Below, one piece after another: positions 1 through 4,869 of a stretch of 4,869 nt of DNA; within the stretch, counting starts at the first letter, position 1; each line of letters begins with the position of its first letter. This DNA comes from a virus (taxonomy: Duplodnaviria > Heunggongvirae > Uroviricota > Caudoviricetes): the IMG/VR virus record IMGVR_UViG_3300018486_000082. One strand, 5' to 3'. A program made the position numbers and the translations under genes. The notes under the pieces were generated by a model, which saw only the letters and a list, made by a program, of their open reading frames with translations, searched no databases and had not been told where the DNA came from.

Positions 1-1
1 C

Positions 2-1429
2 CGGGCAGATGATCTGGTGCGCAATAACGGAATAGCGGCTAATGCGGTGGCCCTGCATAAGGATCACATTGTCGGGCATATGTTTCTGATCAGCTACCGT
101 CCGAACTGGCGCTGGCTGGGGATGCGGGAGACCGCAGCAAAAAGCTTTGTCGATGAGGTGGAGGCGGCCTGGTCGGAATACGCAGAAGGGATGTCTGGCG
201 AGATCGACGTGGAAGGAAAACGCACATTTACGGAGTTTATCCGTGAAGGTGTTGGCGTTCATGCGTTTAACGGCGAAATCTTTGTGCAGCCGGTCTGGGA
301 TACGGAAACCACGCAGTTATTCCGTACGCGTTTTAAAGCTGTGAGTCCGAAACGGGTGGACACGCCTGGACACGGTATGGGGAACCGTTTTCTGCGGGCC
401 GGTGTGGAGGTCGATCGATATGGCCGTGCCGTCGCGTACCATATCTGTGAGGATGATTTTCCGTTCTCTGGGAGTGGACGATGGGAACGGATCCCGCGTG
501 AACTTCCCACCGGGCGTCCGGCCATGCTGCATATTTTCGAGCCGGTGGAGGACGGGCAGACCCGTGGGGCCAATCAGTTTTACAGCGTCATGGAACGGCT
601 GAAGATGCTCGATTCCCTGCAGGCAACACAGCTTCAGTCGGCCATAGTGAAGGCGATGTATGCAGCGACGATTGAAAGTGACCTTGATACCGAAAAGGCC
701 TTTGAATATATCGCCGGTGCGCCGCAGGGGCAGAAGGATAATCCGCTTATTAATATTCTGGATAAGTTCTCCACCTGGTATGACACGAATAGCGTGACGC
801 TGGGCGGTGTCAAAATTCCGCACCTTTTCCCTGGTGATGATCTGAAACTACAGACTGCGCAGGATTCAGACAATGGATTTTCTGCGCTTGAACAGGCGCT
901 GCTGCGGTATATCGCCGCCGGTCTTGGCGTTTCCTACGAACAGTTGTCCCGTGATTACTCGAAGGTCAGTTATTCAAGTGCCCGCGCATCCGCCAATGAG
1001 TCGTGGCGCTATTTTATGGGGCGGCGAAAATTTATTGCGGCCCGGCTGGCCACGCAGATGTTTTCCTGCTGGCTGGAAGAGGCACTTCTTCGGGGGATTA
1101 TTCGTCCGCCACGGGCACGTTTTGATTTTTATCAGGCGCGATCAGCCTGGTCACGGGCAGAGTGGATTGGTGCCGGAAGAATGGCCATTGACGGGCTCAA
1201 GGAAGTCCAGGAATCAGTGATGCGCATTGAGGCCGGACTGAGCACGTATGAGAAAGAGCTGGCGCTGATGGGCGAGGATTATCAGGACATTTTCCGCCAG
1301 CAGGTCAGGGAATCTGCAGAGCGGGAAAAAGCCGGACTCTCACGTCCGGTGTGGATAGCGCAGGCGTATCAGCAGCAGATAGCGGAGAGTCGCAGGCCGG
1401 AAGAGGAGACAACACCCCGTGAGACGTAA
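2..1429 (+). CDS. B: Portal protein (lambda gpB-like), 5'-partial; the reading frame is open to the window edge so the true start lies upstream
   Basis: Frame is open from nt 2 (RADDLVRNNG...) with no stop, so the ATG at 17 in the ORF track is probably internal. About 475 codons present, consistent with a portal of roughly 530 aa. Sits immediately upstream of, and overlaps, the head protease gene, as in lambda B-C. Stop TAA at 1427-1429. Assignment rests mainly on synteny and size; I cannot align it to gpB from memory. Confidence 0.78.
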   Translation, partial: RADDLVRNNGIAANAVALHKDHIVGHMFLISYRPNWRWLGMRETAAKSFVDEVEAAWSEYAEGMSGEIDVEGKRTFTEFIREGVGVHAFNGEIFVQPVWDTETTQLFRTRFKAVSPKRVDTPGHGMGNRFLRAGVEVDRYGRAVAYHICEDDFPFSGSGRWERIPRELPTGRPAMLHIFEPVEDGQTRGANQFYSVMERLKMLDSLQATQLQSAIVKAMYAATIESDLDTEKAFEYIAGAPQGQKDNPLINILDKFSTWYDTNSVTLGGVKIPHLFPGDDLKLQTAQDSDNGFSALEQALLRYIAAGLGVSYEQLSRDYSKVSYSSARASANESWRYFMGRRKFIAARLATQMFSCWLEEALLRGIIRPPRARFDFYQARSAWSRAEWIGAGRMAIDGLKEVQESVMRIEAGLSTYEKELALMGEDYQDIFRQQVRESAEREKAGLSRPVWIAQAYQQQIAESRRPEEETTPRET

Positions 1430-2924
1430 TCTTTCACACATTATTGCCGCAGCATTCAATGAACCGCTGCTTCTGGAGCCCGCCTATGCGCGGGTTTTCT
1501 TTTGCGCGCTCGGGCGCGAGATGGGGGCAGCAAGTCTTTCGGTACCACAACAGCAGGTACAGCTTGATGCTCCCGGAATGCTGGCTGAAACGGACGAGTA
1601 CATGGCCGGAGGTAAACGACCGGCCCGTGTTTACCGGGTGGTGAACGGTATTGCGGTACTGCCGGTGACCGGCACGCTGGTGCACCGGCTGGGGGGGATG
1701 CGGCCATTTTCCGGAATGACTGGCTATGACGGCATTGTCGCCTGTCTTCAGCAGGCAATGGCAGATAGCCAGGTGCGGGGCATACTGCTGGACATTGACA
1801 GTCCGGGCGGGCAGGCCGCCGGCGCGTTTGACTGCGCTGACATGATTTACCGCCTCCGTCAGCAGAAGCCGGTCTGGGCACTGTGCAATGACACGGCCTG
1901 TTCTGCAGCCATGCTGCTGGCGTCGGCCTGCTCCCGACGGCTGGTTACCCAGACATCCCGTATCGGCTCCATTGGCGTGATGATGAGCCATGTCAGCTAT
2001 GCCGGTCATCTGGCGCAGGCCGGTGTGGATATCACGCTGATTTACTCAGGGACGCACAAGGTGGATGGCAATCAGTTTGAAGCCTTACCGGCAGAGGTTC
2101 GCCAGGACATGCAGCAGCGCATTGATGCGGCGCGCCGGATGTTTGCCGAAAAAGTGGCGATGTTTACCGGTCTGTCTGTTGATGCCGTCACGGGAACAGA
2201 GGCCGCCGTTTTTGAAGGTCAGTCCGGCATTGATGCCGGGCTGGCGGATGAATTAGTCAATGCGTCGGATGCCATCAGTGTGATGGCCACGGCGCTGAAC
2301 AGTAATGTCAGAGGAGGCACTATGCCGCAATTAACTGCAACGGAAGCCGCCGCGCAGGAGAACCAGCGAGTGATGGGGATCCTGACATGCCAGGAAGCGA
2401 AAGGACGTGAACAGCTTGCCACGATGCTGGCAGGACAACAGGGCATGAGCGTTGCACAGGCCCGGGCGATTCTGGCCGCGGCGGCACCGCAGCAGCCGGT
2501 GGCATCCACGCAGAGTGAAGCCGATCGCATTATGGCGTGTGAAGAAGCGAACGGTCGTGAACAACTGGCGGCAACGCTGGCGGCGATGCCGGAGATGACG
2601 GTGGAAAAAGCCCGCCCGATCCTGGCTGCTTCACCGCAGGCGGATGCCGGACCCTCACTCCGTGATCAGATCATGGCACTGGATGAGGCAAAAGGGGCTG
2701 AGGCGCAGGCTGAACAGCTGGCTGCCTGCCCGGGAATGACTGTGGAGAGCGCCCGGGCTGTGCTGGCTGCGGGATCAGGTAAGGCAGAACCGGTCTCTGC
2801 ATCCACAACCGCCCTGTTTGAACGCATCATGGCGAACCATTCACCGGCAGCGGTACAGGGTGGCGTGCCACAGACGTCAGCAGACGGTGATGCGGACGTG
2901 AAAATGCTCATGGCTATGCCATGA
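1419..2924 (+). CDS. C: Head maturation protease (S49/SppA-ClpP superfamily, lambda gpC-like) fused in frame to a C-terminal scaffold domain
   Basis: GTG start at 1419 preceded by GAGGAG (1403-1408, 10-nt spacer); overlaps the portal stop by 11 nt. N-terminus MRRNLSHIIAAAFNEPLLLEPAYARVFFCAL closely resembles recalled lambda gpC (..NLPHIASMAFNEPLMLEPAYARVFFCAL..). Conserved S49 core: NGIAVLPVTGTL, LLDIDSPGG, GAFDCADMI, KPVWALCNDTACSAAMLLASACSRRLVTQTSRIGSIGVMMSH, LIYSGTHKVDGN, GLADELVN. 501 aa; stop TGA 2922-2924. Confidence 0.9.
   Translation: MRRNLSHIIAAAFNEPLLLEPAYARVFFCALGREMGAASLSVPQQQVQLDAPGMLAETDEYMAGGKRPARVYRVVNGIAVLPVTGTLVHRLGGMRPFSGMTGYDGIVACLQQAMADSQVRGILLDIDSPGGQAAGAFDCADMIYRLRQQKPVWALCNDTACSAAMLLASACSRRLVTQTSRIGSIGVMMSHVSYAGHLAQAGVDITLIYSGTHKVDGNQFEALPAEVRQDMQQRIDAARRMFAEKVAMFTGLSVDAVTGTEAAVFEGQSGIDAGLADELVNASDAISVMATALNSNVRGGTMPQLTATEAAAQENQRVMGILTCQEAKGREQLATMLAGQQGMSVAQARAILAAAAPQQPVASTQSEADRIMACEEANGREQLAATLAAMPEMTVEKARPILAASPQADAGPSLRDQIMALDEAKGAEAQAEQLAACPGMTVESARAVLAAGSGKAEPVSASTTALFERIMANHSPAAVQGGVPQTSADGDADVKMLMAMP
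2322..2924 (+). CDS. nu3: Scaffolding protein (lambda gpNu3-like) from an internal in-frame start within the protease gene
   Basis: ATG at 2322 is in frame with the protease ORF ((2322-1419)/3 = 301) and is preceded by a near-consensus Shine-Dalgarno GAGGAGG (2311-2317) with a 4-nt spacer. Lambda Nu3 is likewise the in-frame C-terminal portion of C. The 200-aa product is Ala/Gln/Glu-rich and carries the RIMGIL..EEA.GREQ..PGMTV..AR.ILAA motif recalled from lambda Nu3. Separate expression is inferred, not shown. Confidence 0.6.
   Translation: MPQLTATEAAAQENQRVMGILTCQEAKGREQLATMLAGQQGMSVAQARAILAAAAPQQPVASTQSEADRIMACEEANGREQLAATLAAMPEMTVEKARPILAASPQADAGPSLRDQIMALDEAKGAEAQAEQLAACPGMTVESARAVLAAGSGKAEPVSASTTALFERIMANHSPAAVQGGVPQTSADGDADVKMLMAMP
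2367..2822 (+). repeat. Three tandem in-frame coding repeats (~47-53 codons each) inside the scaffold domain
   Basis: Protein-level repeats: R1 RVMGILTCQEAKGREQLATMLAGQQGMSVAQARAILAAAAPQQPVASTQSEAD (nt 2367-2525); R2 RIMACEEANGREQLAATLAAMPEMTVEKARPILAASPQADAGPSLRD (2526-2666); R3 QIMALDEAKGAEAQAEQLAACPGMTVESARAVLAAGSGKAEPVSASTTALFE (2667-2822); a fourth partial unit begins RIMANH at 2823. Shared motif I-M/L-x-x-x-E-A-x-G-x-E-Q-L-A...P-x-M-T/S-V-E-x-A-R-x-I/V-L-A-A. Nucleotide similarity between units is only moderate, so the duplication looks old. Confidence 0.7.
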
Positions 2925-2960
2925 AGTCAGTGCTGACCATCAACAGGAGGTTTTTACAAT

Positions 2961-3308
2961 ATGGTAACGAAAACCATCACTGAACAGCGTGCGGAAGTAC
3001 GTATTTTTGCCGGTAATGATCCGGCTCATACCGCCACAGGCAGCAGCGGGATTTCCTCGGCAACACCGGCACTGACGCCCCTGATGCTGGATGAAGCTAC
3101 CGGGAAACTGGTGGTCTGGGACGGACAGAAAGCCGGTAGTGCGGTTGGCATACTGGTACTGCCGCTTGAAGGCACAGAGACGGTACTGACGTATTACAAG
3201 TCGGGGACCTTTGCGACGGAGGCAATCCGCTGGCCTGAAAGTGTGGATGAACACAAAAAGGCAAATGCCTTTGCCGGCAGTGCCCTGAGTCACGCGGCGC
3301 TGCCGTAA
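2961..3308 (+). CDS. D: Head decoration protein (lambda gpD-like capsid stabilisation protein)
   Basis: ATG 2961 preceded by AGGAGG (2944-2949). 115 aa versus roughly 110 aa for lambda gpD. Motifs match recalled gpD: DPAHTAT, TPLMLD, KLVVWDG, AVGIL, YKSGTF, WPE, AFAG. Lies between the protease/scaffold and major capsid genes as in lambda. Stop TAA 3306-3308. Confidence 0.9.
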   Translation: MVTKTITEQRAEVRIFAGNDPAHTATGSSGISSATPALTPLMLDEATGKLVVWDGQKAGSAVGILVLPLEGTETVLTYYKSGTFATEAIRWPESVDEHKKANAFAGSALSHAALP

Positions 3309-3315
3309 CACGTTA

Positions 3316-3337
3316 TCAGGCCACCGCGGTGGCCTGA
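3316..3337. promoter_or_regulatory. Perfect 22-bp palindrome / GC-rich hairpin in the D-E intergenic region
   Basis: TCAGGCCACCGCGGTGGCCTGA is its own reverse complement (9-bp stem, 4-nt loop as RNA). Starts 8 nt after the D stop and ends 28 nt before the E start. Followed only by a short TTT, so not a canonical strong intrinsic terminator. Function unknown. Confidence 0.35.
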
Positions 3338-3365
3338 CTGATTTCTGAATGAAAGGAACTGATTT

Positions 3366-4394
3366 ATGGGATTGTTTACGACCCGCCAGTTACTCGGTTA
3401 TACCGAACAAAAAGTTAAATTTCGTGCGCTGTTTCTGGAGCTGTTTTTCCGCCGTACGGTGAATTTCCATACCGAAGAGGTGATGCTGGACAAAATTACC
3501 GGAAAAACGCCGGTGGCGGCCTATGTCTCCCCGGTTGTTGAAGGAAAAGTGCTGCGTCATCGTGGTGGTGAAACCCGCGTGTTACGTCCGGGCTACGTCA
3601 AGCCGAAACACGAATTTAATTACCAGCAGGCGGTTGAGCGCCTTCCTGGTGAAGATCCGGCTCAACTGAACGATCCGGCTTACCGCCGTCTGCGTATCAT
3701 TACCGATAACCTCAAACAGGAAGAGCACGCGATTGTCCAGGTGGAAGAAATACAGGCGGTAAATGCTGTGTTGTATGGCAAATATACGATGGAAGGAGAC
3801 CAGTTCGAGAAAATTGAGGTCGATTTTGGCAGGTCGACGAAGAATAACATCACTCAGGGTAGTGGTAAGGAGTGGTCAAAACAGGATCGTGACACGTTCG
3901 ATCCTACACATGATCTTGACCTCTACTGCGACCAGGCCAGCGGTCTTGTGAATATTGCCATTATGGACGGTACCGTCTGGCGTCTTCTGAATGGTTTTAA
4001 GCTGTTCCGCGAAAAACTGGATACCCGTCGCGGTTCAAATTCTCAACTCGAAACGGCAGTGAAAGATCTGGGCGCAGTGGTGTCCTTCAAGGGGTATTAC
4101 GGCGATCTGGCCATTGTGGTGGCGAAAACGTCTTATATAGCAGAAGACGGTATCGAAAAACGTTATCTGCCGGAGGGCATGCTGGTTCTGGGGAATACTG
4201 CTGCAGATGGGATCCGTTGTTACGGTGCCATTCAGGATGCGCAGGCGTTGTCCGAAGGTGTGGTGGCTTCTTCCCGTTACCCGAAACACTGGCTGACCGT
4301 GGGCGATCCGGCCCGTGAATTTACCATGACGCAGTCCGCACCGCTGATGGTGCTGCCGGATCCGGATGAGTTTGTGGTGGTGCAGGTGAAATAA
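3366..4394 (+). CDS. E: Major capsid protein (lambda gpE-like)
   Basis: ATG 3366 preceded by AAAGGA (3351-3356). 342 aa versus roughly 341 aa for lambda gpE. Extensive matches to recalled gpE: TT.QLL, YVSP, PGYVKPKHE, DPAYRR.RII, QVEE.QAV.AVL.GKYTM, NNITQ, EWSK, EKLDTRRGSNS.LETAVKDLG, GDPAREFTM.QSAPLM, DPDEFV.VQ. Stop TAA 4392-4394. Confidence 0.93.
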   Translation: MGLFTTRQLLGYTEQKVKFRALFLELFFRRTVNFHTEEVMLDKITGKTPVAAYVSPVVEGKVLRHRGGETRVLRPGYVKPKHEFNYQQAVERLPGEDPAQLNDPAYRRLRIITDNLKQEEHAIVQVEEIQAVNAVLYGKYTMEGDQFEKIEVDFGRSTKNNITQGSGKEWSKQDRDTFDPTHDLDLYCDQASGLVNIAIMDGTVWRLLNGFKLFREKLDTRRGSNSQLETAVKDLGAVVSFKGYYGDLAIVVAKTSYIAEDGIEKRYLPEGMLVLGNTAADGIRCYGAIQDAQALSEGVVASSRYPKHWLTVGDPAREFTMTQSAPLMVLPDPDEFVVVQVK

Positions 4395-4402
4395 TCCGTG
4401 AG

Positions 4403-4431
4403 CGGGGGCGAAATGCCCCCGTGTCTTTTTT
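4403..4431 (+). terminator. Candidate Rho-independent (probably partial) terminator just after the major capsid gene
   Basis: Stem CGGGGGC (4403-4409), loop GAAAT (4410-4414), stem GCCCCCG (4415-4421); then TGTC and a TTTTTT run (4426-4431). The 7-bp all-GC stem plus T6 is terminator-like, but the 4-nt gap before the T-run is non-ideal. The next gene's SD lies immediately downstream, so read-through must occur if that gene is expressed from the same transcript. Confidence 0.5.
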
Positions 4432-4445
4432 CACAGGGGGCTGAT

Positions 4446-4829
4446 ATGGCAACAAAAGAAGAAAATCAGAAACGTCTTCGTCAACTGGCTGGCCTGCTGG
4501 GGCGCGAGGCGGATATGTCGGGGAGTGCTGCGGATATTGCGCAACGTGTGTCTGAGTGGGAAGAGGAGCTTGCTGCTTCCCGGGAGGGCATTATGCCTGG
4601 TGATGAGAGCGGGCCTGAGCAAAATCACACAGACGATGGTGAGCAGTTGCACAACACTGATGCTACGGATGATGTTAAAGCGGTCCGTGTGCGGAAATGC
4701 CTGCATGTGATGGGGTATTGCCCGGAGACAGGCCGTCCCGTTGAACTGACGTACCGGGGCATGCGTGTTCTGGTGCCGTCACCACTGGCGACAGCCATGA
4801 TACAGCACGGAACGGCTGAGCATGCGTGA
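4446..4829 (+). CDS. FI: DNA-packaging / head-completion protein, lambda gpFI-like (tentative)
   Basis: ATG 4446 preceded by AGGGGG (4435-4440, 5-nt spacer); 127 aa versus roughly 132 aa for lambda gpFI. Position directly after the major capsid gene matches lambda E-FI. Charged helical N-terminus (KEENQKRLRQLAGLL...AQRVSEWEEELAA), acidic linker and a small C-terminal domain resemble gpFI architecture as I recall it. The ORF track's upstream GTG at 4398 would translate through the terminator hairpin and lacks an SD, so I prefer 4446. Stop TGA 4827-4829. Confidence 0.55.
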   Translation: MATKEENQKRLRQLAGLLGREADMSGSAADIAQRVSEWEEELAASREGIMPGDESGPEQNHTDDGEQLHNTDATDDVKAVRVRKCLHVMGYCPETGRPVELTYRGMRVLVPSPLATAMIQHGTAEHA

Positions 4830-4841
4830 TTTTCAGAATGC

Positions 4842-4869
4842 AGATCGGAAGAGCGTCGTGTAGGGAAAG
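4842..4869. other. Illumina TruSeq adapter sequence (library artefact) at the 3' end of the window
   Basis: AGATCGGAAGAGCGTCGTGTAGGGAAAG is an exact 28/28 match to the start of the standard adapter read-through sequence AGATCGGAAGAGCGTCGTGTAGGGAAAGAGTGT (reverse complement of the TruSeq universal adapter 3' end). Not biological sequence. Confidence 0.85.

What the first reader, a model, noticed from the sequence alone, without database searches (positions are those of the whole stretch)
4842..4869. Window ends in untrimmed Illumina adapter, so the 3' junction is artefactual
The final 28 nt exactly match the canonical TruSeq adapter read-through sequence; a chance 28-mer match is negligible. 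Whatever follows the FI-like gene in the real genome (an FII-like head-tail joining gene would be expected) is therefore missing. The apparent ATG at 4838-4840 and any ORF running into the adapter must not be annotated. It also suggests the contig was assembled from incompletely trimmed reads, so other contig ends in the dataset may carry the same problem.
Basis: partly seen in the sequence, partly recalled or inferred. Interest (0 to 1): 0.6.

Follow-up and report, generated by a model that had tools for sequence, protein, structure and literature searches.

The report
Sequencing adapter stuck on contig end
The last 28 bases of the window are a leftover Illumina TruSeq library adapter, not phage DNA, so the sequence is only trustworthy up to base 4841; this is an ordinary assembly artefact, useful for quality control only.

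Summary
Observation confirmed and interpretation supported, with small corrections. Bases 4842-4869 are an exact copy of the first 28 nt of the TruSeq universal-adapter read-through sequence (AGATCGGAAGAGCGTCGTGTAGGGAAAG...). The chance expectation is about 1e-13. The rest of the window (1-4841) aligns in one ungapped piece to E. coli lambdoid prophages, up to 98.5% over the full length and 99.8% over the last 542 nt. That homology stops exactly at 4841; the relatives aligned across the junction continue CTTTGATGCTGCC.

The same 28-mer sits at the ends of at least 120 unrelated IMG/VR contigs. 122 of 127 copies lie within 200 nt of an end and point outward, and each follows a different sequence. 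The phage-adapter junction itself occurs in none of three public contig collections.

- The FII gene is not wholly missing. In relatives it starts at window 4822, overlapping the FI stop codon, so its first 20 nt (MRDFQN) are present.
- The ATG at 4838-4840 is genuine phage DNA, but it is out of frame with FII and is not a start codon.
- The adapter supplies a false TAG stop at 4861-4863.
- The adapter also opens two spurious minus-strand frames at the window end.

There is no biological novelty. Trim at 4841.

The parts
4842..4869 (+). First 28 nt of the reverse complement of the Illumina TruSeq universal (P5) adapter, i.e. the Read 2 read-through sequence. Base 4842 (A) corresponds to the A-tail/T-overhang ligation base. 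Not biological.
   Evidence: Exact match, 0 of 200 shuffles. Listed as a library adapter in the literature. No homology to any relative. Found at the ends of at least 120 unrelated IMG/VR contigs.
4822..4841 (+). Genuine 5' stub of the head-tail joining gene FII: ATG plus 5 codons plus 2 nt, MRDFQN. It is cut off by the adapter. Base 4841 is the last trustworthy base.
   Evidence: The annotated FII CDS in E. coli 2013C-3264 and phage PhiR12_2_star starts at the equivalent position. DNA is identical up to 4841. Translations.
4838..4840 (+). It is genuine phage DNA but 16 nt after the FII start, so out of frame and not a start codon. Its reading frame runs into the adapter (MQIGRASCRE).
4861..4863 (+). 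False TAG stop supplied by the adapter in the FII frame, giving a spurious 13-codon ORF (MRDFQNADRKSVV*).
   Evidence: compared with the 117-aa FII of a relative.
4446..4829 (+). DNA-packaging protein FI gene, 127 aa from the ATG used in annotated relatives. The longest ORF starts at GTG 4398. This is the last complete gene of the window.
   Evidence: Pfam PF14000 Packaging_FI, E=1.5e-14. Annotation in relatives. The exact protein is listed in 6084 blocks of the public assembly collection.
4628..4869 (-). Two spurious minus-strand frames open from the window end: 4869 down to 4678 (64 codons) and 4867 down to 4628 (80 codons). They begin with adapter-coded peptides (LSLHDALPI..., FPTRRSSDL...) and run antisense to FI. 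An edge-tolerant gene caller could call them.
   Evidence: Neither product is on record in the public gene index.
2..4394 (+). Genuine context, a lambda-type head module: portal gene with its 5' end cut by the window start (2-1429), S49 protease/scaffold C-Nu3 (1419-2924), decoration protein D (2961-3308) and major capsid protein E (3366-4394).
   Evidence: Pfam PF05136, PF01343, PF02924 and PF03864. One-piece alignment of window 1-4841 to E. coli prophages at up to 98.5% identity.

Best explanation
The 28 bases are a technical artefact.

What is shown: the window is 4841 nt of genuine E. coli lambdoid phage or prophage DNA followed by 28 nt of TruSeq adapter.

What is inferred:
- A DNA fragment from a lambda-like E. 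coli phage or prophage ended at window base 4841. It was A-tailed and ligated to a TruSeq-type Y adapter.
- The insert was shorter than the read length, so a read in Read 2 orientation ran through the insert end into the reverse complement of the universal (P5) adapter.
- Adapter trimming was absent or incomplete, and the assembler used that read to extend the contig tip.
- Extension stopped there. Either no read went further, or adapter k-mers are shared by many unrelated reads and form a branching hub in the assembly graph.

In the real genome the sequence after 4841 continues CTTTGATGCTGCC..., the body of the FII head-tail joining gene.
For: - Exact 28/28 match with chance expectation about 1e-13. 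The sequence is listed as a library adapter in the literature.
- Window 1-4841 aligns as one piece to E. coli prophages. The listed best hits reach 98.5% over the full length and 99.8% over 4300-4841. Every listed alignment stops at 4841.
- Six relatives aligned across the junction all continue CTTTGATGCTGCC where the window switches to AGATCGG.
- The 28-mer behaves as a promiscuous terminal tag in public data. At least 120 IMG/VR contigs carry it. 122 of 127 copies lie within 200 nt of an end and point outward, at a median of 13 nt from the end. All 127 upstream 20-mers are different. 104 of 127 continue exactly with the downstream universal-adapter sequence.
- It is essentially absent from finished genomes of the host: 1 of 5426 complete E. 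coli genomes has it, inside a frameshifted fliI pseudogene. It occurs in only 7 of 50,697 phage records, from unrelated hosts.
- The specific phage-adapter junction occurs in no viral, metagenome or genome contig collection.
Against: No reads are available, so read-through is inferred, not observed. The origin of the window is unknown and I could not find its source contig. It is therefore not shown that the window end is a contig end. Only 28 of the 58 adapter bases are present, so the continuation AGTGTAGATCTCGG... cannot be checked.
Confidence: 0.95

Rival explanations
1. Internal adapter chimera. The window is cut from a longer contig in which the adapter, or a head-to-head adapter pair, joins the phage head module to unrelated DNA. 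On this reading it is still an artefact, but a mis-join and not a contig tip.
For: About 4 of 127 copies in IMG/VR are internal. L072 shows a head-to-head adapter pair joining two segments. L063 shows a full-length adapter plus poly-A inside a contig.
Against: 122 of 127 public copies are terminal and point outward. Here the window stops after 28 adapter bases, and 7 of 127 IMG/VR copies are likewise flush with the end. Nothing is known beyond base 4869.
Confidence: 0.04
2. Polishing or consensus artefact. Untrimmed short reads used to polish a long-read assembly wrote adapter bases into the consensus.
For: The RefSeq complete genome NZ_CP123349.1 carries the same 28-mer inside fliI, flanked by genuine fliI sequence and annotated as frameshifted.
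Against: Such insertions are internal with genuine sequence resuming afterwards. Here the sequence ends in the adapter, and a 4.9-kb fragment cut inside the portal gene looks like a short-read contig.
Confidence: 0.01
3. Genuine biological sequence: a phage variant that really carries these 28 bases after codon 6 of FII.
For: None.
Against: - Chance expectation about 1e-13.
- No listed prophage or phage alignment extends past 4841. The 28-mer occurs in only one complete E. coli genome, in fliI and not next to FI.
- The junction is absent from all three contig collections.
- It would truncate the essential FII gene to 13 codons.
Confidence: 0.001

Closest known systems
Illumina TruSeq universal adapter (P5 arm), reverse complement: the standard Read 2 trimming sequence AGATCGGAAGAGCGTCGTGTAGGGAAAGAGTGT
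   Same: Identical over all 28 bases present. Terminal and pointing outward, like 122 of 127 copies in IMG/VR contigs.
   Different: Only the first 28 of 58 bases are present because the window ends. The downstream part (AGTGTAGATCTCGGTGGTCGCCGTATCATT, seen in full in L063) cannot be checked here.
TruSeq index-adapter read-through (Read 1 trimming sequence AGATCGGAAGAGCACACGTCTGAACTCCAGTCA)
   Same: Shares the first 13 bases, AGATCGGAAGAGC.
   Different: Diverges from base 14. The window follows the universal arm for all 15 remaining bases, so it is not this arm.
Head module of lambda-like E. coli prophages (portal B, C/Nu3, D, E, FI, FII), e.g. in O55:H7 strain DEC5B and phage PhiR12_2_star
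   Same: Same gene order and 93-99.8% DNA identity up to base 4841. The FI stop overlaps the FII start as in relatives.
   Different: FII is cut after 20 nt by the adapter. The portal gene is cut at the window start.

Membership tests
Illumina TruSeq universal-adapter read-through artefact | Sequence identity to the published adapter | tested here: met
   28/28 exact. The string is listed as 'adapter 2' in PMC7303419 and occurs in 728 papers.
Illumina TruSeq universal-adapter read-through artefact | Bases beyond the shared 13-nt prefix match the universal (P5) arm and not the index arm | tested here: met
   k-mer comparison: the index arm matches only 4842-4854, the universal arm matches 4842-4869.
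Illumina TruSeq universal-adapter read-through artefact | Homology to related genomes stops exactly at the first adapter base | tested here: met
   Listed alignments end at window 4841. The six relatives aligned across the junction continue CTTTGATGCTGCC.
Illumina TruSeq universal-adapter read-through artefact | Located at a sequence end and pointing outward | tested here: met
   It occupies the last 28 bases of the window on the + strand. 122 of 127 public copies have the same geometry. Whether the window end is the contig end is unknown.
Illumina TruSeq universal-adapter read-through artefact | The same tag is attached to many unrelated sequences | tested here: met
   127 copies with 127 different upstream 20-mers in IMG/VR. 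Phage records from Klebsiella, Bifidobacterium, Enterococcus and other hosts also carry it.
Illumina TruSeq universal-adapter read-through artefact | Read-level signature: support only from 3' ends of short-insert reads | not testable with these tools
   No reads are available and the source contig was not found.
Lambda-type head module (context of the junction) | Portal, S49 protease/scaffold, decoration D, capsid E and FI in this order | tested here: met
   Pfam PF05136, PF01343, PF02924, PF03864 and PF14000, all above the curated cut-offs. Same order in annotated relatives.
Lambda-type head module (context of the junction) | FII (PF05354 Phage_attach) gene follows FI and overlaps its stop | tested here: inconclusive
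   Only the first 20 nt are present. They are identical to relatives. The rest is replaced by adapter.

The most novel reading that the evidence does not exclude
The most unusual reading not excluded is that the window is part of a longer chimeric contig, in which the adapter joins this head module to unrelated DNA. Separately, the true genome downstream might be the deleted form in which FI is followed by a short FII stub fused to a C-terminal fragment of tail fibre J, as in some E. coli cryptic prophages with the identical FI protein. Both are still ordinary.
Probability: 0.05. Interest if true: 0.08.

Novelty: not a real feature. Interest (0 to 1): 0.07.

Why it matters
It matters only for data hygiene.
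- The window should be trimmed at 4841.
- FII should be annotated as a 3'-partial gene starting at 4822, or not at all.
- No ORF touching 4842-4869 on either strand should be kept.
- Untrimmed adapter at a contig tip suggests that the whole dataset was assembled from poorly trimmed reads. Other contig ends, and any termini, repeats or terminal genes inferred from them, deserve the same check.
- The public-data scans show the problem is widespread: at least 120 IMG/VR contigs, 7 GenBank phage records and one RefSeq complete E. coli genome carry the 28-mer.

Tried and rejected
- **Source contig.** I tried to find it, to show that the window end is a contig end. The 36-nt junction has no exact match in viral, metagenome or genome contigs. 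Exact-protein look-ups of the partial portal and of the two spurious minus-strand products found nothing. The exact C/Nu3 protein led only to a different 3399-bp ENA contig, which is 98.9% identical and ends inside the capsid gene, so it does not reach the junction.
- **Other adapters.** I scanned the window for other adapters (TruSeq index arm, Nextera, small-RNA, MGI; sequences from my own knowledge). Apart from the 3' end, the only hit was a 12-nt match to the reverse complement of the TruSeq index tail at 4139-4150. I reject it as chance, because it lies inside the capsid gene within the unbroken alignment to E. coli prophages.
- **The 5' end.** It carries no adapter. The alignment to relatives starts at base 1.
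- **Assembler k-mer size.** 28 adapter bases would equal k-1 for a de Bruijn graph with k=29. This is untested speculation, and a read simply ending there explains it equally well.
- **ATG at 4838 as the FII start.** Rejected, because it is out of frame with the annotated start at 4822.

Full report
**1. The observation**

The window ends ...TTTTCAGAATGC|AGATCGGAAGAGCGTCGTGTAGGGAAAG. A pattern search finds the 28-mer once, at 4842-4869 on the + strand, with no mismatch. None of 200 dinucleotide-preserving shuffles gave a match, even with 3 mismatches allowed. The analytical expectation for an exact 28-mer on either strand of 4869 bases is 1.3e-13.

The string occurs in 728 papers of the library. 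The one I read gives it as a library adapter: 'adapter 2, AGATCGGAAGAGCGTCGTGTAGGGAAAGAGTGTA' (PMC7303419). The two TruSeq arms share only their first 13 bases. The remaining 15 bases of the window follow the universal (P5) arm, which is the sequence seen when Read 2 runs through a short insert (the arm assignment rests on my own knowledge of the adapter sequences). The observation and its coordinates are correct.

**2. What surrounds it**

The rest of the window is an ordinary lambda-type head module:
- portal, cut at the window start (2-1429, PF05136);
- S49 protease/scaffold (1419-2924, PF01343);
- decoration protein D (2961-3308, PF02924);
- major capsid protein E (3366-4394, PF03864);
- FI (4446-4829, PF14000).

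All five score above Pfam's curated cut-offs. Window 1-4841 aligns as a single piece to E. coli prophages. The best hit is 98.5% identical (O55:H7 strain DEC5B), and 1549 records cover at least 80% of the query. The last 542 genuine bases are 99.8% identical to many prophages and 93.6% identical to phage PhiR12_2_star. The 5' end is genuine from base 1, so only the 3' end carries adapter.

**3. The junction**

Every listed alignment ends at window 4841. Aligned base by base, six relatives are identical to the window through ...CAGAATGC. They then continue CTTTGATGCTGCC..., while the window switches to AGATCGG. The genomic base expected at 4842 is C and the window has A, so the boundary is unambiguous. 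The leading A of the adapter string is the A-tail/T-overhang ligation base of TruSeq-type chemistry (established knowledge). This fits a physical fragment end at 4841.

**4. Effect on genes**

In annotated relatives FI ends at the TGA at window 4827-4829. The head-tail joining gene FII starts at the ATG at 4822-4824, overlapping that stop. The window therefore keeps the first 20 nt of FII, coding MRDFQN. These residues match the 117-aa FII of a relative.

In that frame the adapter adds DRKSVV and a false TAG stop at 4861-4863. Only its continuation, MQIGRASCRE, is artefactual.

On the minus strand two frames are open from the window end, for 64 and 80 codons. They begin with the adapter-coded peptides LSLHDALPI and FPTRRSSDL and run antisense to FI. 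A gene caller that allows partial genes at contig edges could report them.

**5. Behaviour of the 28-mer in public data**

Among the 127 copies in those contigs:
- 122 lie within 200 nt of an end and point outward, at a median of 13 nt from the end;
- 7 are flush with the end, as in this window;
- 104 continue exactly with the expected downstream adapter bases;
- all 127 are preceded by a different 20-mer.

L063 shows the full 58-nt adapter followed by poly-A. L072 shows a head-to-head adapter pair joining two segments inside a contig. Sixteen of the 80 listed contigs come from one IMG dataset, 3300045988.

Among finished records the 28-mer is very rare. Only 1 of 5426 complete E. coli genomes has it, inside a fliI gene annotated as frameshifted. 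Only 7 of 50,697 phage records have it, from unrelated hosts and several at record ends. None is next to FI.

**6.

A 36-nt string spanning the junction has no exact match in the viral, metagenome or genome contig collections. In the ten loci fetched for the identical capsid protein, FI is followed by an overlapping PF05354 (FII) gene.

The fliI case adds a caution. An assembly can carry the 28-mer flanked by genuine sequence on both sides and still be an artefact. Read-level or PCR evidence would be needed, not another assembly.

**7. Mechanism**

Shown: the window is 4841 nt of phage DNA plus 28 nt of adapter.

Inferred: a short-insert fragment ending at 4841 gave a Read 2 orientation read that ran into the adapter. 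Trimming missed it, and the assembler used it to extend the contig tip. Extension then stopped, because no read went further or because adapter k-mers form a hub in the assembly graph.

The rivals are also artefacts:
- an internal adapter-mediated mis-join, if the window is cut from a longer contig (about 4% by analogy with IMG/VR);
- a polishing artefact of the fliI kind.

A genuine biological origin is excluded for practical purposes.

**8. Limits**

I could not find the source contig. It is therefore not shown that base 4869 is a contig end, and the state of the rest of the dataset is unknown. No reads are available.

**9. Verdict**

This is a correct quality-control catch with no biological content. 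Trim at 4841, treat FII as 3'-partial from 4822, and discard any ORF touching 4842-4869 on either strand. Interest is low and the novelty rating is 'not a real feature'.

Noticed in passing
L134 301-329 (NZ_CP123349.1, 702310-702338): A RefSeq 'complete' E. coli genome (strain AREA_R485) carries the same 28-nt adapter inside fliI, with genuine fliI sequence on both sides. The gene is annotated as a frameshifted pseudogene. This is probably an assembly or polishing artefact and not a real flagellar defect.
   Followed up: partly
L124, L129, L131, L133 (loci), about 3377-3826: Several E. coli genomes with an FI protein identical to the window's lack an intact FII. The next gene called after FI carries a PF12421 (Ig_GpJ_C) domain and is followed by lom and tail-fibre genes. 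In L131 and L133 that gene starts at the FII start and is called as a 149-aa product. This looks like a deletion of the tail genes from FII to J in cryptic prophages. These loci still match the window up to 4841 and continue CTTTGATG, so the deletion point lies further downstream.
   Followed up: partly
L072 1142-1215 (IMGVR_UViG_3300045988_159093): A head-to-head pair of universal-adapter copies sits inside a 38.8-kb IMG/VR contig. This suggests an adapter-mediated chimeric join of two unrelated segments.
   Followed up: no
one search list (IMG/VR): Adapter-tipped viral contigs cluster by dataset. 16 of the 80 listed come from IMG dataset 3300045988, and many others come from the series 3300018470 to 3300018492.
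   Followed up: no
one search hits H53-H59: Seven GenBank phage records carry the 28-mer, for example Klebsiella phage OU509537.1, Escherichia phage vB_EcoP-R1 OQ703102.1 and Enterococcus phage SSMH01 OR360270.1. Several have it within a few tens of bases of a record end. Two have it under annotated genes: a 'hypothetical protein' in MW202825.1 and an 'endonuclease' in PQ462667.1.
   Followed up: no
window 1347-3238 versus 3327-4841: The window is mosaic relative to individual prophages. L124 and L125 are 99.4% identical over 1347-3238 but 95.1% over 3327-4841. Other prophages are 99.8% identical over 4300-4841 but only about 96-97% identical over the longer stretches compared (2800-4841 for L001, 1446-4841 for L126-L133). 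This is ordinary lambdoid recombination.
   Followed up: no
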